This document shows positions 1,570 through 52,774 of a stretch of DNA of 64,000 bases, piece by piece. How positions within the stretch are numbered: the stretch's first letter is position 1; every line of letters starts with the position of its first letter. Position numbers and translations under genes: made by a program. The notes below the pieces were generated by a model. The model ran no database searches. It was not told where the DNA came from and saw nothing but the letters and a program-made list of their open reading frames with translations. The stretch spans positions 1-64,000 of the IMG/VR virus record IMGVR_UViG_3300032138_000524; one strand, written 5' to 3'. Origin of the DNA: a virus. Lineage: Duplodnaviria; Caudoviricetes.

Positions 1570-2928
1570 ATGGATGATCTTTTAAAAGACGCAATAGCAG
1601 ACGCTAAAGCAGTCAGAGAGACCGCACTTGCAAACGCTAAAATAGCTCTTGAAGAAGCTTTCACTCCCCGTATTCAATCCATGCTTTCAAACAAGATTCA
1701 GAACGAATTAGAAGGTGATGAAGAAGCAGCAGAAGAAGCTCCAGTAGAAGGTGAAGAACCCGAAGCTGAAGAAGAACCTGAGATAGCAGCTGAACCTGAA
1801 ATTGGTGAAGAACCTGCAGCAGAAGGTGAAGAAGATGTAGAAGATATTATCGCAGCACAGGATGAAATTCCTGGCGAAGAAGCTCCTGCAGAAGAACCTA
1901 TCGTTGCACAGGATGAAGTTCCTGGTGATGAATGGTCTGAAGAAGAACCAGCAGCAGAAGAAGCAGTGGAAGAAGAAGGTGTGATTGAAATCAACGGTGT
2001 AAAATATGCACCAGTCGTTTCTGAAGAAGAAGATGAAGAAGCTGAAGCTCCTGTTGCAGAACAGGAAGATGAAGCAACTGAAGAAGAACTTGATCTTGAA
2101 GCAATCCTTAAAGAACTCGAAGAAGAAGCTGATGATAGTGAAATCTCAGAGGAATATGAGGAAGGTGAAGTAGGTGATGGTCTTGATTCGTCAGAAGCTG
2201 AAACAGCTGATGAAGCTGAATTAGCAGAGAACGATGTATCTTCTGATATTGGTGATGGTGACAACAAAGTCGCTGATGACGCAGCAGATTCGTCTGATAT
2301 CGGTCAAGGTTCGGAAGAACCAGCAGCCGCAGACGCACCCGCAGCAGGTCATGAAAACGCCGAAGATGAAGAAGTTGATGATTTAGTTGAAGTCAATGGA
2401 GTAACATACTCTAAAGTTCAAGAAGAAGAAGGTGATGATGACGTTGCCGAATCTACTGAAACTGAAGAAGATATTGACCTTGAAGAAATCTTGAAAGCAC
2501 TTTCAGAACAAGATGATGAAGAAGCAGAGAAATCTGAAGCGAAAGTATCTGAACTTACTTCTGATCTTGATGAACATCGCAAAGTAGTGAAGTATCTACG
2601 AGGAAAGTTGAATGAAGTTAATTTATTGAACGCAAAACTATTGTTTACTAACAAATTATTCCGTGCACACGGTTTAACTAATGAACAGAAGTTGAAAGTC
2701 GTAGAAACCTTTGACAGAGCTAAGAACCTTAGAGAAGTTAAGTTGGTATTTTCCACCTTGGCAGAATCTTTTGGTAGCAAAACGGCAAGTCCGTCTAAAC
2801 CAATTAAAGAGAGTAAAGGCCAAGCTTCTAAAGCAGTAGCTTCTACCAAACCTAAATCAGCACCGAAGGTGATTGAAGAAGGATTTGATATGAAACAACG
2901 CTTCCAGAAGTTAGCTAATATTCTATAA
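1570..2928 (+). CDS. Prohead core/scaffolding protein
   Basis: Very acidic middle region; N-terminus DLLKDAIADAKAVRETALANAKIALEEAF and C-terminus EVNLLNAKLLFTNKLF...RFQKLANI; directly upstream of the major capsid gene. ATG 1570 has a GGAGA RBS. Confidence 0.8.
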   Translation: MDDLLKDAIADAKAVRETALANAKIALEEAFTPRIQSMLSNKIQNELEGDEEAAEEAPVEGEEPEAEEEPEIAAEPEIGEEPAAEGEEDVEDIIAAQDEIPGEEAPAEEPIVAQDEVPGDEWSEEEPAAEEAVEEEGVIEINGVKYAPVVSEEEDEEAEAPVAEQEDEATEEELDLEAILKELEEEADDSEISEEYEEGEVGDGLDSSEAETADEAELAENDVSSDIGDGDNKVADDAADSSDIGQGSEEPAAADAPAAGHENAEDEEVDDLVEVNGVTYSKVQEEEGDDDVAESTETEEDIDLEEILKALSEQDDEEAEKSEAKVSELTSDLDEHRKVVKYLRGKLNEVNLLNAKLLFTNKLFRAHGLTNEQKLKVVETFDRAKNLREVKLVFSTLAESFGSKTASPSKPIKESKGQASKAVASTKPKSAPKVIEEGFDMKQRFQKLANIL

Positions 2929-2967
2929 CAATTAACAAAAATCTTAACGATTTTTTGGAGAAAAAAA

Positions 2968-4584
2968 ATGGCAGATAATTTACAATCCATCGAACAACTG
3001 ATGGATAGCTATGATTCCAACCGTAGTCGTTTAGCCGAAACCCAAAAGTTAGTCAGTAAGTGGGAGCCTACTGGTTTACTTGAAGGTCTTGAAAGAGATA
3101 ATGAAGTTCACGGAATGGCAGTTCTTTTAGAAAACCAAGCACGCCAGCTTATTGACGAAAGTTCAAAAACTGGTACTGCTTCGAATTCTGAAGAGTGGTC
3201 AGGTGTTGCTTTACCATTGGTTCGTAGAATCTTTGGTGAATTGGCAGCACAAGATTTCGTCAGCGTACAGCCGATGAATCTACCAAGTGGTCTGATTTTC
3301 TATCTTGACTTCAAATATGGAACGGTTCAATCTGGACAACATACAAAAGGGTTTGATATTCATGGTAACACTTCCGCTTCTAACGCAGACGCAAGTGGTG
3401 GTCTTTATGGAGCTGGTAAATTTGGATATTCGGTGAATGACCAAGAAACTGGCACTATAGCACCAACCGCAGCTTCTGCTTCTTGGAAAGAAGTAGAATT
3501 CGAACCTTCATTGAGTTCGTCAATTGCAACAACAGCCGCAGATCAGGTTGTTAAACTTACTATCGCAAGAAGTAATTTTACAAGACCAGATGTTGAAGGT
3601 TGTCGTGCATTTGCAGTAAGTGGTTCTGATGTTTCCGCACATTATCCAGCATATACATCTTATGATGCTACCAACTTTTACTTTTATGTAAAATCTACTA
3701 ATGGTACGCTCGCAGGTGGTGTTGGAGTAAAGTATCATCAGCAACCATTAGATACATCTCGTGGTGATTTTGAACAATCTACGTTCACTACACCATCCCC
3801 GAATTCAGCAGATGATGTTGATATTCCTGAGATTGACATTCAGTTACGTTCAGTTAGTATAGTTGCGAAAACTCGTAAGCTTAAAGCTATCTGGACTCCT
3901 GAGTTAGCTCAAGACCTTAACGCTTATCATAGTGTTGATGCAGAAGCAGAACTTACTTCTATGTTGAGTGAGTACATTTCAATGGAAATTGATTTGGAAA
4001 TCCTTGATATGTTGAAGTTAAACGCTAATGCTAAGACCGAATATTGGTCAGCAAAAACTGGTTTTGAGTATGATTCCGCAAATACCGTATTTAGTGAAGT
4101 GAGTGGTAATTCCAACGCTTACACTAAGGGTGAGTGGTTCCAGACTCTTGGAAACAAACTACAGTCAGTATCTAACACGATACATCAGAAAACTCTACGT
4201 GGTGGAGCTAACTTCATGGTGATTTCACCTGAAACAGCAACTATCATAGAAAGTATCCCTGGATACGCAGCAGATTCTGATGGTGATTCAGCTAATACAT
4301 CCTACGCAATGGGTGTTCAAAAAGTTGGTGCATTGAATAACAGATATACGGTTTATAAAAACCCATATATGTTAGAAAATGACATCTTAATGGGTTTCAG
4401 AGGAAGTAATTTCCTTGAAACTGGAGCTGTTTACGCACCGTATGTACCGTTAATCATGACTCCTCTTGTTTACGATCCTGTTAATTTCACTCCTCGTAAG
4501 GGTGTAATGACAAGATACGCGAAGAAGATGGTTCGTCCTGAATTCTACGGTAAAGTCATCGTCGCAGATGTCAACTACGTTTAA
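2968..4584 (+). CDS. Major capsid protein (T4 gp23-like)
   Basis: Motifs LPLVRR, VSVQPM, AKTRKLKAIWTPELAQDLNAYH, DAEAELT, YAPYVPL, FTPRKGVMTRY. Confidence 0.97.
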   Translation: MADNLQSIEQLMDSYDSNRSRLAETQKLVSKWEPTGLLEGLERDNEVHGMAVLLENQARQLIDESSKTGTASNSEEWSGVALPLVRRIFGELAAQDFVSVQPMNLPSGLIFYLDFKYGTVQSGQHTKGFDIHGNTSASNADASGGLYGAGKFGYSVNDQETGTIAPTAASASWKEVEFEPSLSSSIATTAADQVVKLTIARSNFTRPDVEGCRAFAVSGSDVSAHYPAYTSYDATNFYFYVKSTNGTLAGGVGVKYHQQPLDTSRGDFEQSTFTTPSPNSADDVDIPEIDIQLRSVSIVAKTRKLKAIWTPELAQDLNAYHSVDAEAELTSMLSEYISMEIDLEILDMLKLNANAKTEYWSAKTGFEYDSANTVFSEVSGNSNAYTKGEWFQTLGNKLQSVSNTIHQKTLRGGANFMVISPETATIIESIPGYAADSDGDSANTSYAMGVQKVGALNNRYTVYKNPYMLENDILMGFRGSNFLETGAVYAPYVPLIMTPLVYDPVNFTPRKGVMTRYAKKMVRPEFYGKVIVADVNYV

Positions 4585-47879: not shown

Positions 47880-48128
47880 ATGTTAAACATAAAAAACGAA
47901 ATCAGAAAATTAGATAGTCTTTCAGAGTTGAATGAACTATCAGCATTTATCAATGATTGTAAAGTGATGTTAGGTAGAATGTCATTTTCTGTTGGGGATA
48001 AAGTTTATGTAGTCCAAAAGACTAAGAAAACCGAAGGTAGGATTACTAAAGTCAACAAAGTTAAATGTGTTGTTGATATGAGAGGTCGGTTATACAATGT
48101 TCCAATGTCAATGTTGGAGATGAGGTAA
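47880..48128 (+). CDS. Small hypothetical protein with an SH3/KOW-like C-terminus
   Basis: FSVGDKVYV...EGRITKVNKVKCVV...YNVPMSML. Confidence 0.55.
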   Translation: MLNIKNEIRKLDSLSELNELSAFINDCKVMLGRMSFSVGDKVYVVQKTKKTEGRITKVNKVKCVVDMRGRLYNVPMSMLEMR

Positions 48129-48145
48129 AAAAGTCAAAAAAAGCC

Positions 48146-48174
48146 TTGACTTTTACAAATTTTATTCGTAAGAT
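48146..48174 (+). promoter_or_regulatory. Sigma70-type (early) promoter 3
   Basis: TTGACT-N17-TAAGAT; followed only by an 8-codon ORF and structured non-coding sequence. Confidence 0.75.
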
Positions 48175-48180
48175 CAATAG

Positions 48181-48434
48181 TAATGAGAGAGATATGGAAA
48201 TACTAAAAATACTTGTTTAACCCCGTTTGATTAGGTTCATATAAAAGTGTCTAAGGGGAGTTTAAGACACACGAGAGAAAAAAAAATTCGTGGTTTCGTC
48301 CTTTCTACGATAATTTGAAAGGGTGGTGGGTTTGAGAGTGACTACCTATTTGGAACTCTCAAAAATTTTGGGGAATAGATAGTTAGACTATACCGCTGGA
48401 CTCGTTTGAGGACTCTGGATTCCCCAATTTTTTT
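48181..48434 (+). ncRNA. Candidate ~250-nt multi-hairpin non-coding RNA
   Basis: Stems GTGTCT/AGACAC, CACGA/TCGTG, CCTTTC/GAAAGG, TTTGAGAGT/ACTCTCAAA, TTGGGGAAT/ATTCCCCAA, ending in T7; promoter 3 upstream. Confidence 0.45.
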
Positions 48435-48451
48435 AGCTATAAAAGATAGTG

Positions 48452-48600
48452 TTTGAGAAATTTATGAGATATATATATTAAATGGTGGTGAGGTTTTTTT
48501 ACATATACCCGATAATTTTTAATTATCTAAAACTCACCACTTTTTTTAAAAAAAGCGAAGAAAAAAGACGTTTTGAGAAATTTGGAGTATATATATAATA
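48452..48600 (+). promoter_or_regulatory. Two copies of a TTTGAGAAATTT-N-ATATATAT promoter-like motif (48452 and 48572)
   Basis: tttgagaaatttatgagatatatatatt and tttgagaaatttggagtatatatataat; each directly precedes a candidate small RNA. Confidence 0.5.
48484..48547 (+). ncRNA. Candidate ~64-nt small RNA (paired ends, oligo-U tail) or strong terminator
   Basis: GTGGTGAG(G)TTTT pairs with AAAACTCACCAC; inner GATAATT/AATTATC hairpin; T7 tail. Confidence 0.45.
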
Positions 48601-48624
48601 TACGATTAAAATTAAAGAATTAAA

Positions 48625-48788
48625 TTTTGTGGGTCGGAGTTGTAAGATTACCATACGAGAAGAGAAAGACGGTTTTATCCCGTCTTAAATGGTTGACCGA
48701 ATTCCAGTATAAAAAAAGTTGGAGTGGTTTTCTTGTTTCCATTTGACAAAAAGAACAATACCTCTTATGACATGATTTACCTACAAAA
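48625..48788 (+). ncRNA. Y-RNA-like ncRNA 1 (~164 nt)
   Basis: Ends pair (TTTTGTGGGT/ACCTACAAAA), internal loop CGGA/ATGATTT, second helix GTTGTAAGA/TCTTATGAC, multi-hairpin interior; upstream of Ro60. Confidence 0.65.
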
Positions 48789-48799
48789 AATATTAAAAT

Positions 48800-48869
48800 T
48801 TCGGGTCGGAGTTGATGGATTATCATTATACCAGACAATAAAGACTCCATTAGCAATAATTTATCCGAA
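48800..48869 (+). ncRNA. Y-RNA-like ncRNA 2 (~70 nt)
   Basis: TTCGGGT/ATCCGAA, internal loop CGGA/AATAATTT, helix GTTGATGGA/TCCATTAGC; shares GGGTCGGAGTTGnnnGATTAYCAT with RNA 1; 41 nt upstream of the Ro60 start. Confidence 0.65.
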
Positions 48870-48910
48870 TAATATTAAAAATTGAATAATTAAAAAAGGA
48901 GACTTATTAA

Positions 48911-50518
48911 ATGAGCTACCAAGCATATACAACATACAACACAAAAGTTACACCACAATCAGAACCAATTCCAGGTTCTAATCAAGTTCCAAATTCCGCA
49001 GGTGGACATTCTTTTGAAGTTGATATATGGACTCGTTTAAATAGATTTCTTATTTTAGGAACTGAAGGTGGAACATATTATATCCGCCAAAAACAATTAA
49101 CAAAAGAGAACGCCAAGTCAATAAAAAAGTGTATTCTGTTAGATGGAAAACGAGTAGTAGATACCGTTATCAATATTTCAGATACAGGTCGTGCAGTTAA
49201 AAACGATCCAGCACTATTTGTTCTTGCAATGTGTGCAGGACTTGGTGATGATTTTACTCGTAAATACGCCTTAACCAATCTACCAAAAATAGCAAGAATT
49301 GGAACTCATTTGTTTCATTTCGCTGGTTATGTAGAACAGTTTAGAGGTTGGGGTCGTGGACTACGAAAAGCTATCGCAAATTGGTATCTGTTAAAAGAAA
49401 CTGATAAGTTAGCATATCAATCTGTAAAGTATCAACAAAGAGATGGTTGGTCACATAAAGACCTATTGAGATTATCTCATCCATCTACACAAGATGCCAA
49501 TAAAGATTTACTATTTGAGTGGGTTACAAAAGGATATAATTCTTCAAAGGAAGATGAATATAAGGATTCACTCAGTATAATTTGGGCCTTCGAGAAGGTC
49601 AAGTCAGTCCAGACAGATGTGGAAGCTGCTAAATTAGTGGAAGAATATAAACTCCCACTTGAGGCAGTTCCTTCTAACCTAAAGACACCTAAAGTTCTGG
49701 AAACAGCATTACCACATTTGGGATTGACAGCTATTATCAGAAACTTAGGTAACTATACCAAACACGGTATTCTCACTCCCCAAAGTGACGCCCTTAAACT
49801 CGTTACTTCGAGAATAACCGATAAGGGGAAATTGCAGAAGGCCCGTATTCATCCATTAAGTGTATTACAGGCAATGCAAACCTATAAGAGTGGTAAAGGA
49901 CTCAAAGGTTCTGGTGAGTGGGAAGTAAACCCACAAATAGTAGATGCTCTTGATGACGCATTCTACTTGTCTTTCGATAATATAATTCCAACTGGTAAAC
50001 GAGTGATGTTATCACTTGATGTATCTTCATCCATGACTTGGGAAGGTTGTGGTGGAATGCCATCAGTAACACCACGAGTTGGTTCAGCTGCAATGGCAAT
50101 GGTTACAATGAGAACTGAAAGTGATTATCTTATAACAGGTTTTACAACTGGATTAGAGATTCTTGATCTTTCTCCGAAAATGAGATTGGATGATGTATGT
50201 GATAGATTGGAAAATCTTGATTTTGGTGGAACTGATTGTTCATTACCAATGTTATACGCACTTGAGAATGACCTCCAGTTTGACGCCTTCGTAGTTTATA
50301 CAGATAGTGAAACTTGGGCAGGTGAAATGCATCCAGTTGAAGCGTTAAAGATGTATAGAAAGAAAACAGGAATTCCAGCAAAACTAATTGTAGTGGGAAT
50401 GGAAGCAAATGATTTTACAATAGCAGATCCAGATGACTCTGGTATGTTAGATATAGTAGGTTTTGATACGACAGCACCTTCCGTGATGTCCGATTTTATC
50501 AGAGAAGATTTACAGTAA
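48911..50518 (+). CDS. Ro60-like TROVE domain RNA-binding protein (TROVE + vWA)
   Basis: QVPNSAGG, RLNRFLILGTEGGTYY, GWGRGLRKAIANWY, KYQQRDGWSHKDLLRLSHP, ARIHP, MIDAS LDVSSSM, GGTDCSLPM, VYTDSETW, GMLDIVGFD. Confidence 0.95.
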   Translation: MSYQAYTTYNTKVTPQSEPIPGSNQVPNSAGGHSFEVDIWTRLNRFLILGTEGGTYYIRQKQLTKENAKSIKKCILLDGKRVVDTVINISDTGRAVKNDPALFVLAMCAGLGDDFTRKYALTNLPKIARIGTHLFHFAGYVEQFRGWGRGLRKAIANWYLLKETDKLAYQSVKYQQRDGWSHKDLLRLSHPSTQDANKDLLFEWVTKGYNSSKEDEYKDSLSIIWAFEKVKSVQTDVEAAKLVEEYKLPLEAVPSNLKTPKVLETALPHLGLTAIIRNLGNYTKHGILTPQSDALKLVTSRITDKGKLQKARIHPLSVLQAMQTYKSGKGLKGSGEWEVNPQIVDALDDAFYLSFDNIIPTGKRVMLSLDVSSSMTWEGCGGMPSVTPRVGSAAMAMVTMRTESDYLITGFTTGLEILDLSPKMRLDDVCDRLENLDFGGTDCSLPMLYALENDLQFDAFVVYTDSETWAGEMHPVEALKMYRKKTGIPAKLIVVGMEANDFTIADPDDSGMLDIVGFDTTAPSVMSDFIREDLQ

Positions 50519-50542
50519 CAAATAAGTAACAAAGGAAAAACA

Positions 50543-50758
50543 ATGAACACAGGTACAGTAAAGTGGTTCGACGCTAAAAAAGGATATGGTTTTATATCTG
50601 ATACGGCGACGGATGGCTCAAAAGACTATTTTGTCCATTTCTCCGAAATTCAAACAGACGGCTTTAAGACTTTAGCAGAAGGTCAAAAAGTTGAATTTGA
50701 AATTGGAGAAGGTACAAAAGGTGCTGTTGCGAAGAATGTTAAATCAGCAACAGAATAA
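50543..50758 (+). CDS. Cold-shock domain protein
   Basis: [15 protein letters not shown] (RNP1), YFVHFSEI (RNP2), [14 protein letters not shown]. Confidence 0.95.
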
Positions 50759-50778
50759 ATTAAATTTAGCATAAAAAG

Positions 50779-50803
50779 TTGGGTTGTTTTTGTAACAACC
50801 CAA
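50779..50803 (+). terminator. Hairpin/terminator after the cold-shock gene
   Basis: TTGGGTTGTT-tttgt-AACAACCCAA. Confidence 0.6.
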
Positions 50804-50881
50804 TATTTATTATTGTCAACGGTTATACCAATGACAATTAACTAATAACAAATAAAAATAATAATAATAAGGAGATAACAA

Positions 50882-51667: not shown

Positions 51668-52774
51668 ATGTCTGTATCAGCAAAAGACGAACTTGCACAA
51701 GTTCTTGCCGATAGTCTTAATAAACAGTTCAAGGATACAAAGGTAGCTTATTTTCTCGATGGTTCTAATGCTACTCCAACTGATATCAAGGAATTCGTAT
51801 CTACTGGTTCATCTGTATTAGACCTTGCAATTTCCAACCGTCCAAACGGTGGAGTTGCAGTTGGTCGTATTACAGAAATCAATGGATTGGAATCAAGTGG
51901 TAAATCTCTAATAGGAACTCACATTCTTGCTGAAACTCAGAAAAAGGGTGGTGTTGCAGTCTATATAGATACTGAAACATCAGTTAGTAGAGAATGGTTA
52001 GAAACTATTGGTGTAAATGTTCAAGACTTGTTATATCTTCATGTCGAAACCGTTGAAGATATATTCGAATGTATTGAAAGTATCATTAGTAAGATTAGAG
52101 AATCAGATAGAGAAAGGTTAGTTACAATTCTTGTAGATTCACTTGCAGGAGCATCTACCAAAGTAGAAATGGAAGCCGACTTTGAGAAAGACGGATGGGC
52201 AACGAGTAAAGCGATTATCGTTTCAAAAGCGATGAGAAAGATTACTCAAATGGTTGGTCGTGAGAGAATAGCTCTCGTATTCACCAATCAACTCAGACAA
52301 AAACTCGGAGTAATGTTCGGTGATCCGTGGACTACTTCTGGTGGAAAAGCATTACCATTTCACTCATCAACTCGTATTCGTTTAAAGAATATGGGGCAAA
52401 TTAAAGATACAAGTAAAAATGTATTAGGTATGAAGTGTAGGGCACAGATTATTAAAAATCGCTTGGGTCCTCCACTTCGTCATGCTGACTTTAACTTATA
52501 TTTCGATAGTGGTATTGATGATAAGGGGAGTTGGTTACAAGTATTAAAAGACCACAAACTTCTAAAGATTGCAGGAGCTTGGTATACCTTGAATTTTGAA
52601 GGTAAGGATATCAAATTTCAATCTAAAGATTTTGAGAAAAAATTAGAAGAAACTGATGGACTCCAAGAACACTTGTATGACCAAATCTGTGATGCATCTA
52701 TACTAAAGTATCAATCAGCCGATTTAGGTATTGATGATGTAGTATATACAGATGAAGTAGTCGGTGATGAGTAA
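51668..52774 (+). CDS. uvsX: RecA/UvsX recombinase
   Basis: STGSSVLDLAI, GRITEINGLESSGKS, YIDTE, ILVDSLA, FTNQLRQK, TTSGGKALPFHSSTR. Confidence 0.92.
   Translation: MSVSAKDELAQVLADSLNKQFKDTKVAYFLDGSNATPTDIKEFVSTGSSVLDLAISNRPNGGVAVGRITEINGLESSGKSLIGTHILAETQKKGGVAVYIDTETSVSREWLETIGVNVQDLLYLHVETVEDIFECIESIISKIRESDRERLVTILVDSLAGASTKVEMEADFEKDGWATSKAIIVSKAMRKITQMVGRERIALVFTNQLRQKLGVMFGDPWTTSGGKALPFHSSTRIRLKNMGQIKDTSKNVLGMKCRAQIIKNRLGPPLRHADFNLYFDSGIDDKGSWLQVLKDHKLLKIAGAWYTLNFEGKDIKFQSKDFEKKLEETDGLQEHLYDQICDASILKYQSADLGIDDVVYTDEVVGDE

What the first reader, a model, noticed from the sequence alone, without database searches (positions are those of the whole stretch)
48625..50758. Phage Ro60 locus with two tandem, covarying Y-RNA-like ncRNAs and a cold-shock RNA chaperone
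Seen: two elements directly upstream of a full-length Ro60 (TROVE+vWA) gene share GGGTCGGAGTTGnnnGATTAYCAT (48631, 48803) and 3' ACAATA...CTC...ATTTAYC. Each folds into the same terminal structure: end-pairing helix, asymmetric internal loop (CGGA opposite ATGATTT or AATAATTT), then a 9-bp helix. That helix differs in sequence but keeps pairing through three compensatory changes (GTTGTAAGA/TCTTATGAC vs GTTGATGGA/TCCATTAGC). RNA 1 (164 nt) has a multi-hairpin distal domain; RNA 2 (70 nt) has only a short loop. Known: Y RNAs bind Ro60 through an end-paired stem whose 5' strand in animals reads GGUCCGA (here GGUCGGA); bacterial Y RNA genes lie next to Ro60, often in pairs; the distal domain recruits effectors such as PNPase. 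Inference: this is a phage-encoded Ro60 RNP with a long effector RNA and a minimal RNA, co-transcribed with a Csp protein. I see no tRNA-like T-loop, so these may be a Y RNA class distinct from YrlA. Possible roles are steering RNA decay or countering host tRNA/RNA-cleaving defences.
Basis: partly seen in the sequence, partly recalled or inferred. Interest (0 to 1): 0.92.

Follow-up and report, generated by a model that had tools for sequence, protein, structure and literature searches.

The report
Phage Ro60 gene with two Y RNAs
An uncultured marine phage carries a full Ro60 ring-protein gene preceded by two small RNAs with the stem that Ro60 grips; this pairing is already known in phages and bacteria, but the longer RNA here lacks the usual tRNA-like part.

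Summary
Two elements, 48625-48788 (about 160 nt) and 48799-48870 (about 70 nt), lie on the + strand just upstream of a canonical Ro60 gene. Both close with the same module: terminal stem, bulged C, three weak pairs (GGA/UUU), a 4-5 nt bulge on the 3' side, a 9-bp helix and UUAYC.

A covariance model built only from the short RNA finds the same module upstream of distant phage Ro60 genes, on the same strand. Covariation there is strong. In two locus sets, 195 of 196 matches fall on the Ro60 strand.

So these are Y RNAs, a kind known from bacteria, actinophages and Thermus phage phiLo. Gordonia phage BearBQ has the same layout: long RNA, short RNA, Ro60.

The long RNA is different. Its distal domain gets no YrlA, tRNA or Y RNA match at E <= 10, while long RNAs of at least ten other phage loci do. 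It holds a 77-nt near-invariant core.

The cold-shock gene is a facultative neighbour, absent in three close relatives and in all distant loci.

This scan has already reported phage Ro60 genes with RNA arrays on other DNA. Verdict: real, a new variant of a known kind.

The parts
48573..48601 (+). Sigma-70-like promoter (TTGAGA, 17 nt, TAATAT) about 25 nt upstream of RNA1. It follows the T-run terminator of the preceding small-RNA unit.
   Evidence: The consensus scan finds it. The motif GTTTTGAGAA...TATATATA(A/G)TAT is kept at the same distance from RNA1 in 14 distinct relatives. Promoter function is inferred.
48625..48788 (+). RNA1, the long Y RNA (160 nt core at 48627-48786, plus two possible extra U-A pairs). 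Lower stem 48627-48634 with 48779-48786. Bulged C at 48635. GGA 48636-48638 with UUU 48776-48778. 9-bp helix 48639-48647 with 48763-48771. 3' bulge AUGA at 48772-48775. UUACC at 48648-48652.
   Evidence: The fold contains these helices. All 25 modelled pairs form in 10 variants, against 40-55% when the 3' partners are slid. There are 16 distinct variants and every helix change keeps pairing. The shuffle test gives 2 of 20,000. Variant lengths of 156-164 nt rule out a coding frame.
48667..48685 (+). Variable hairpin P2 inside RNA1: a 5-6 bp stem with a loop of 7-10 nt that differs between relatives.
   Evidence: One compensatory change, GACGG/CCGTC to GATGG/CCATC, plus changes in loop size.
48686..48762 (+). 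Near-invariant distal core of RNA1 (about 77 nt). It is predicted to form an irregular long hairpin flanked by A-rich single strands. This is the candidate effector-binding module. It is not tRNA-like.
   Evidence: It is almost invariant across 16 variants, although third codon positions of Ro60 are only 83-89% identical. No YrlA, tRNA or Y RNA match at E <= 10 when RNA1 is searched alone. The predicted fold has z of only -1.4 and no covariation, so the structure is unproven.
48799..48870 (+). RNA2, the minimal Y RNA (about 70 nt). Lower stem 48800-48806 with 48863-48869. Bulged C at 48807. GGA 48808-48810 with UUU 48860-48862. 9-bp helix 48811-48819 with 48846-48854. 3' bulge AAUAA at 48855-48859. 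UUAUC at 48820-48824.
   Evidence: Fold z = -2.7. All pairs form in 8 variants, with a GC to AU compensatory change and a G.U intermediate in L143. Rfam nematode stem-bulge RNA model RF01656 scores 32.1 bits, E = 6e-4, below its cut-off of 38. It is the only R2 match in the 131.8-kb phage record.
48911..50518 (+). Full-length Ro60 gene (535 aa, TROVE ring plus vWA domain with a DVSSSM metal-site motif).
   Evidence: Pfam matches. It aligns end to end with D. radiodurans Rsr 2NVO (E = 9e-132), X. laevis Ro60 1YVP (3e-123) and human RO60.
50543..50758 (+). Cold-shock domain protein (71 aa), starting 24 nt after the Ro60 stop codon with no terminator between.
   Evidence: Pfam CSD, 1.7e-27. The gene is present after Ro60 in most close relatives but missing in L007, L012 and L013 and in all distant loci.
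50778..50804 (+). Intrinsic-terminator-like hairpin (11 pairs) followed by T-rich sequence; the likely end of the unit.
   Evidence: Terminator scan.

Best explanation
This is a phage-encoded Ro60 ribonucleoprotein locus.

Inferred transcription: one early-type promoter (48573-48601) drives a transcript that runs through RNA1, RNA2, Ro60 and, in this phage, a cold-shock protein gene, ending at the terminator at 50778-50804.

Inferred processing: the two RNAs are cut out of the AU-rich leader, as in Mycobacterium smegmatis, where YrlA and YrlB come from one precursor upstream of rsr.

Shown by comparison: each RNA closes with a conserved handle made of terminal stem, bulged C, GGA/UUU pairs, 3' bulge, 9-bp helix and UUAYC. 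The same handle recurs beside Ro60 genes in many phages.

Inferred from X. laevis, D. radiodurans and phiLo work: this handle is where the outer face of the Ro60 ring binds.

Inferred function: RNA2 is a minimal Y RNA that occupies or gates Ro60. RNA1 adds a sequence-invariant distal module of about 77 nt in place of the usual tRNA-like domain. That module most likely tethers Ro60 to a partner. A host 3'-to-5' exoribonuclease such as PNPase is the precedent. The partner would degrade or remodel structured RNA during infection. The Csp RNA chaperone would be an optional helper that melts substrates.
For: Gene identity:
- Canonical Ro60 and a CSD protein.

Handle in both RNAs:
- Present in the folds.
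- All pairs form across relatives.
- Five changes on both sides separate the two paralogues (my reading).
- A GC, GU, AU series occurs at one helix pair.

Homologous elements elsewhere:
- Model R1, built from RNA2 alone, finds about 70-nt elements upstream of Ro60 genes only 37-54% identical, all on the gene's strand.
- Their alignment has 92% of cells paired, 11 of 19 pairs with compensatory change, and 0 of 500 shuffles as good.
- Model R2 gives 114 of 114 matches on the Ro60 strand, upstream of Ro60, in 40 of 41 sources.
- In 60 further loci never used for training, 81 of 82 matches are on that strand.
- R2 gives a single match in the 131.8-kb phage record.

Layout:
- The same order, long RNA then short RNA then Ro60, occurs in Gordonia phage BearBQ and Mycobacterium phage Sparky.

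Selection:
- RNA1 is 91-99% identical between relatives, against 83-89% at Ro60 third codon positions.

Transcription signals:
- The promoter is conserved.
- No terminator lies before 50778.

Precedents in print:
- Y RNAs near Ro60 in 254 bacteria and 22 phages, the GNCGAAN0-1G motif, processing from one precursor, and PNPase tethering (PMC4201824).
- Yrl1 and Yrl2 upstream of phiLo Ro60, with host PNPase complexes (PMC12135203).
Against: - No transcript, end-mapping or binding data exist.
- RNA1 is not found by the handle models, even with filters off. I attribute this to its 115-nt AT-rich insert, but its membership rests on paralogy with RNA2 and on hand-drawn pairing.
- RNA1's whole fold is not more stable than shuffles (z = -1.0).
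- Covariation inside the close clade alone is not significant (57 of 500 shuffles).
- The handle reads GUCGGAG, one base off the published GNCGAAN0-1G motif.
- The partner of the distal module is pure inference.
- No RtcB or Rnl2-type ligase is present in the record, so the bacterial RNA-repair context is missing.
Confidence: 0.82

Rival explanations
1. The two elements are not released RNAs. They are cis-acting operators in the 5' leader of the Ro60 mRNA: Ro60 binds its own leader and autoregulates translation or stability.
For: There is one conserved promoter upstream and no terminator between the elements and Ro60. RNA2 ends only 40 nt before the start codon.
Against: Distant phages carry up to five handle-bearing units spread over 600-1000 nt. 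Some units lie downstream of Ro60 (L106, L108, L137, L097). Many carry tRNA-like inserts. None of this fits a leader operator. In M. smegmatis the same layout gives discrete Ro-bound RNAs (PMC4201824). The two roles could coexist.
Confidence: 0.1
2. RNA2 is a true Y RNA, but RNA1 is a different small RNA that merely borrowed the handle by duplication. Its invariant core would act on its own, for example by base-pairing with a target or as a binding site for the Csp protein, independent of Ro60.
For: The core is conserved in sequence, not by covariation, as expected for a base-pairing or protein-contact surface. RNA1 is missed by the handle models. The upstream gap holds other small-RNA units that share the same promoter module.
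Against: In RNA1 all 20 handle pairs and the bulged C are invariant or compensated in 16 variants, so the handle itself is under selection. RNA1 was found only on contigs that also carry Ro60. Csp is missing in three relatives that keep RNA1 unchanged.
Confidence: 0.06
3. The region encodes small proteins (ORFs 48724-48885 on + and 48620-48856 on -) rather than RNAs.
For: The mechanical ORF list contains them.
Against: Relatives differ by indels that are not multiples of three: RNA1 is 156-164 nt and RNA2 is 68-73 nt. The changes track base pairing, not codons.
Confidence: 0.01

Closest known systems
Bacterial and actinophage Y RNAs YrlA and YrlB with Rsr/Ro60 (Chen et al. 2014, PMC4201824; Rfam RF02553)
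   Same: They are encoded just upstream of Ro60 on the same strand, often as a long plus a short RNA from one precursor. The 5' motif is GNCGAAN0-1G-like (here GUCGGAG). The ends pair into a stem. BearBQ's handle, GGGCCGGAGUUGAUCGGUUAUC, nearly matches RNA2's GGGUCGGAGUUGAUGGAUUAUC.
   Different: Neither RNA here has the T-arm, D-arm and acceptor-like tRNA mimic that defines YrlA. RNA1 instead has a variable hairpin plus a near-invariant core of about 77 nt. The host phage is a low-GC marine phage, not an actinophage.
Thermus phage phiLo Ro60 with Yrl1 and Yrl2 (PMC12135203)
   Same: A phage Ro60 gene with two Y-RNA-like genes directly upstream. That work showed binding and complexes with host PNPase.
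   Different: The phiLo protein is very divergent: it matches the window protein only at E = 1e-8 over about 230 residues, whereas the window protein aligns end to end with Rsr and animal Ro60. The phiLo RNAs were picked by a CGAA motif. No Csp gene is mentioned in the passages of that paper that I read.
D. radiodurans Yrn1 and Yrn2 with Rsr and PNPase (cited in PMC4201824)
   Same: Several Y RNAs lie upstream of rsr. One is a long hairpin without a full tRNA mimic (Yrn2). The Y RNA tethers Ro60 to PNPase, which is the mechanistic model used here.
   Different: There is no detectable sequence relation to RNA1's distal core. PNPase tethering is untested here.
Animal Y RNAs and nematode stem-bulge RNAs (Rfam RF01656; PMC4726728)
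   Same: A lower stem with a single bulged C and a bulge on the opposite strand, then an upper helix followed by UUAUC. RNA2 matches RF01656 at E = 6e-4. Relatives in L026, L054 and L033 pass that family's cut-off.
   Different: The window RNAs score below the cut-off. The three pairs after the bulge are G.U, G.U and A-U. The RNAs are phage-encoded and probably cut from an mRNA leader, not made by RNA polymerase III.

Membership tests
Y RNA (Ro60-partner ncRNA, broad sense) | Encoded next to a Ro60 gene on the same strand (within 2-4 kb in bacteria) | tested here: met
   RNA1 ends 122 nt and RNA2 40 nt before the Ro60 start codon, both on the + strand.
Y RNA (Ro60-partner ncRNA, broad sense) | 5' and 3' ends pair into a stem carrying the Ro-binding motif (animal GGUCCGA with bulged C; bacterial GNCGAAN0-1G) | tested here: met
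   GGGUCGGAG with a bulged C in both RNAs. It is one base off the bacterial motif. Distant relatives read GCCGAAG or GCCGGAG.
Y RNA (Ro60-partner ncRNA, broad sense) | The structure is conserved with covariation in homologues beside other Ro60 genes | tested here: met
   92% of cells paired, 11 of 19 pairs compensatory, 0 of 500 shuffles as good. 195 of 196 model matches lie on the Ro60 strand.
Y RNA (Ro60-partner ncRNA, broad sense) | Discrete stable transcripts physically bound by Ro60 | not testable with these tools
There is no binding assay.
YrlA (Rfam RF02553) | tRNA-like domain (T-arm, D-arm, acceptor-like stem) and a score at or above the family cut-off of 69 bits | tested here: not met
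   No YrlA or tRNA match at E <= 10 in the region or in RNA1 searched alone. ARAGORN finds no tRNA. Positive controls: the same search gives YrlA matches at E = 2e-5 to 0.035 in Sparky, BearBQ and eight metagenomic phage loci.
YrlB/Yrn2-type minimal Y RNA | [quoted passage not shown] | tested here: inconclusive
   RNA2 is a long hairpin of the common 62-75 nt class. Its 26-nt loop is A-rich rather than pyrimidine-rich, and binding is untested.
Nematode stem-bulge RNA family RF01656 | Score at or above the cut-off of 38 bits | tested here: not met
   RNA2 scores 32.1 bits and RNA1 gets no match. The resemblance is in the handle and UUAUC only.
Ro60 / Rsr protein | TROVE HEAT-repeat ring plus a C-terminal vWA domain with a DxSxS metal site, full length | tested here: met
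   Pfam TROVE 3.8e-36 and vWA_Ro60 3.2e-65. End-to-end alignment with 2NVO and 1YVP, with DVSSSM aligned to DVSGSM and DVSASM.

The most novel reading that the evidence does not exclude
RNA1 defines a new effector class of Y RNA. In this marine phage clade the tRNA-like module, reported in at least one Y RNA of every species examined, has been replaced by a sequence-invariant module of about 77 nt. This module would tether Ro60 to a different partner: the phage Csp, or a host nuclease other than the usual one. The result would be a phage-specific machine for clearing structured or damaged RNA, or for countering RNA-targeting host defences.
Probability: 0.3. Interest if true: 0.7.

Novelty: new variant of a known kind. 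Interest (0 to 1): 0.5.

Why it matters
Ro60 and Y RNA particles are conserved from bacteria to humans. How the variable part of a Y RNA chooses Ro60's partner is known in only a few cases.

This locus offers three things:
- a canonical Ro60, far closer to the Deinococcus and animal proteins than the one phage Ro60 studied so far;
- a minimal 70-nt Y RNA;
- a long Y RNA whose distal module is not a tRNA mimic and is almost frozen in sequence.

That makes it a compact system for asking what a non-tRNA effector domain recruits.

It also extends phage Ro60 particles to abundant low-GC marine phages. There, turnover of host RNA matters for nucleotide supply.

The finding is not a new kind of system. 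Tandem Y RNAs upstream of phage Ro60 genes are already in print.

Tried and rejected
1. The Rfam gathering search of the whole window found nothing. Only the permissive search showed the stem-bulge RNA match. The cspA thermoregulator match at 50422-50808 is below its cut-off and mostly follows the coding sequence, so I make no claim from it.

2. A MAFFT alignment of RNA1 with RNA2 mis-aligned the 3' strands, so I did not use it.

3. The handle models did not recover RNA1, even with filters off. Its assignment therefore rests on paralogy and hand-drawn pairing.

4. I looked for relatives of intermediate distance to test covariation in RNA1's core. Scans of viral contigs and metagenomes with these proteins returned only the same close clade or loci at 58% identity or less.

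5. An exact-pattern scan for the RNA1 core found it only in contigs of the same clade, all carrying Ro60.

7. A small-peptide reading was rejected because of frame-breaking indels.

8. A T-arm reading of hairpin P2 (5 bp with a 7-nt loop UUUUAUC) was rejected, because relatives have 10-nt loops.

9. RtcB and Rnl2 ligase searches in the phage record were negative.

10. The review PMC10870794 is not held.
Full report
**What is there**

The stretch 48129-48910 has no credible coding frame. Downstream lie three genes:
- a 535-aa ORF at 48911-50518 with a TROVE domain (3.8e-36) and the Ro60-type vWA domain (3.2e-65);
- a 71-aa cold-shock domain protein at 50543-50758 (1.7e-27);
- a gp32-like single-strand DNA-binding protein and a RecA-type recombinase.

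The Ro60 protein aligns end to end with D. radiodurans Rsr (2NVO, E = 9e-132), X. laevis Ro60 (1YVP, 3e-123) and human RO60. Its DVSSSM metal-site motif is in register with theirs. It matches the only studied phage Ro60, from Thermus phage phiLo, at just 1e-8.

The window belongs to a 131.8-kb virus record estimated 63% complete. Relatives come from marine metagenomes. The nearest Ro60 of a cultured phage is 47% identical, from Gordonia phage BearBQ.

**Check of the observation**

All stated sequence features are present at the stated coordinates. Both RNAs fold as proposed.

I read the 'asymmetric internal loop' differently. After the terminal stem comes a bulged C, then three pairs (G.U, G.U, A-U; GGA with UUU), then a 4-5 nt bulge on the 3' strand, then the 9-bp helix. 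This is what the RNA2 minimum-energy fold shows. It corresponds to the animal Ro-binding site as described in print: a helix with one bulged cytidine and a small bulge on the opposite strand (PMC4726728).

The two copies differ by three changes on both sides in the 9-bp helix and two more in the terminal stem. All keep pairing.

I tested chance by keeping each 5' strand and shuffling the 200 nt downstream. A partner of this architecture as good as the real one arose in 2 of 20,000 shuffles for RNA1 and 11 of 20,000 for RNA2.

**Conservation in close relatives**

Every contig of the clade with upstream DNA has both elements at the same spacing. Ro60 in this clade is 89-98% identical.

There are 16 distinct RNA1 variants and 11 distinct RNA2 variants.
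- In RNA2, helix pair 7 runs G-C, G.U (L143), A-U. Pairs 2 to 5 change on one side only. All 19 pairs form in all 8 aligned variants.
- In RNA1, all 25 modelled pairs form in all 10 variants, against 40-55% when partners are slid. Variation within the clade is too small for significance (57 of 500 shuffles).

Lengths vary by 1-8 nt (RNA1 156-164 nt, RNA2 68-73 nt), which excludes coding.

RNA1 is 91-99% identical to the window copy, whereas Ro60 third codon positions are 83-89% identical.

Changes in RNA1 cluster in one hairpin (48667-48685), which shows a compensatory change and a variable loop. The 77 nt at 48686-48762 are almost frozen.

**Comparison with distant phages**

Model R1 was built from RNA2 variants only. 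It found elements of about 70 nt upstream of Ro60 genes that are 37-54% identical and lie in DNA of about 60% GC. All are on the gene's strand.

The alignment of 17 such elements has:
- 92% of cells paired;
- compensatory change at 11 of 19 pairs;
- no shuffle of 500 as good;
- 30-49% pairing when partners are slid.

Model R2, rebuilt from these, gave 114 matches in 41 sources. All are on the Ro60 strand and upstream of Ro60, in 40 of the 41 sources. Their sizes fall into two classes, 62-75 nt and 105-140 nt, and a locus holds one to five units.

In 60 further loci not used for training, 81 of 82 matches lie on the Ro60 strand, next to the gene. In the window's own 131.8-kb record, R2 matches only RNA2.

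The handle is therefore a general feature of phage Ro60 loci, and RNA2 is a member of the short class.

**Relation to known families**

Chen et al. 2014 reported YrlA-type Y RNAs near Ro60 in 254 bacteria and 22 phages. They described the 5' motif GNCGAAN0-1G, a tRNA-like domain in at least one RNA of each species, second RNAs that are long hairpins, and processing of YrlA and YrlB from one precursor upstream of rsr in M. smegmatis. Thermus phage phiLo has Yrl1 and Yrl2 upstream of its Ro60, with binding and host PNPase complexes shown. Tandem Y RNAs upstream of a phage Ro60 gene are thus a known kind.

BearBQ shows the same order as the window: a 132-nt RNA, a 68-nt RNA, then Ro60. Its handle is nearly the same as RNA2's. 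Its long RNA carries a clear T-arm, an acceptor-like hairpin and a D-arm.

**What differs here**

RNA1 gets no YrlA, tRNA or Y RNA match, even when searched alone at E <= 10. ARAGORN finds no tRNA in the window.

The same Rfam search is sensitive enough to flag tRNA-like inserts in long Y RNAs of Sparky, BearBQ and eight metagenomic phage loci.

RNA1's interior is one variable hairpin plus a long irregular hairpin, flanked by A-rich single strands. It is not a junction of three hairpins.

So this clade appears to lack the tRNA mimic altogether, within the 63% of the genome in hand. Non-tRNA long units also occur inside the arrays of other phages, for example L054:2740-2856. There they sit beside a YrlA-type unit.

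**Transcription**

A sigma-70-like promoter (TTGAGA, 17 nt, TAATAT) lies about 25 nt before RNA1 and is conserved in 14 distinct relatives. It follows the T-run of the preceding small-RNA unit.

No terminator-like site lies between RNA1 and 50778. I therefore infer one precursor covering RNA1, RNA2, Ro60 and Csp, with the RNAs cut out of AU-rich spacers that share AAUAUUAAAA(A)UU. This is inference; no reads could be examined.

**The cold-shock gene**

Csp follows Ro60 in most close relatives. It is missing in L007, L012 and L013, where gp32 follows Ro60 directly. It is absent within 3 kb in all distant loci. It is a facultative neighbour, not part of the conserved module.

**Mechanism**

What is shown: a conserved handle beside Ro60, under selection for pairing.

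What follows from published work on other systems: Ro60 binds this handle, and the distal part of a Y RNA recruits a partner such as PNPase to act on structured RNA.

What I infer for this phage: RNA2 occupies or gates Ro60. RNA1 brings a partner through its invariant core. Csp helps to unwind substrates.

The usual bacterial RNA-repair partners are absent from the record: no RtcB and no Rnl2-type ligase.

**Verdict**

It is a new variant of a known kind, of moderate interest. This scan has already reported phage Ro60 genes with arrays of handle-sharing RNAs on other DNA.

Noticed in passing
L021-L062 upstream of Ro60 (alignment A5); window 48820-48824 and 48648-48652: The motif UUAYC sits 21-22 nt from the 5' end, right after the upper helix, in 96 of 114 phage handle matches (8 more have UUAAC). 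A UUAUC motif at the matching place is described as conserved in nematode stem-bulge RNAs and vertebrate Y RNAs (PMC4726728). The Rfam nematode model RF01656 passes its own cut-off on phage elements in L026 (twice), L054 and L033. Chen et al. 2014 does not mention the motif. This may indicate deep homology of the Y RNA handle across domains of life.
   Followed up: partly
L023, L024, L026, L033, L054 and others, 2200-3000: Distant phage Ro60 genes are preceded by arrays of up to five handle-sharing RNAs in two size classes (62-75 and 105-140 nt). The long units carry different inserts, mostly tRNA-like. Some arrays lie downstream of Ro60 (L106, L108, L137, L097).
   Followed up: partly
L037 1-1772, L057 73-1635, L061 1482-2040: In several phages the Y RNA units directly follow a tRNA gene array on the same strand, which suggests shared transcription and processing.
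   Followed up: no
window 48129-48620: The rest of the gene-free gap holds further hairpin-plus-T-run units and a second copy of the promoter motif GTTTGAGAAATTT...TATATATA at about 48451. The distance from the upstream ORF (the 47880-48128 homologue) to Ro60 varies from 783 nt in the window to about 2700 nt in L018.
   Followed up: partly
window 51668-52774: The recombinase is RecA-type. Its best match in a cultured phage is Microcystis phage Mel-JY01 at 56% identity, so 'T4-like' may be too narrow a label for this phage.
   Followed up: no
L143:1399-1468: This RNA2 variant pairs G with U at helix pair 7. It is the intermediate between the G-C and A-U forms seen in other relatives.
   Followed up: yes
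window 50422-50808: A match below cut-off to the Rfam cspA thermoregulator (50.4 bits against a cut-off of 78) spans the end of Ro60, the Csp gene and the terminator. Most of it follows the conserved coding sequence. Whether the short Ro60-Csp spacer has any thermosensing fold was not examined.
   Followed up: no
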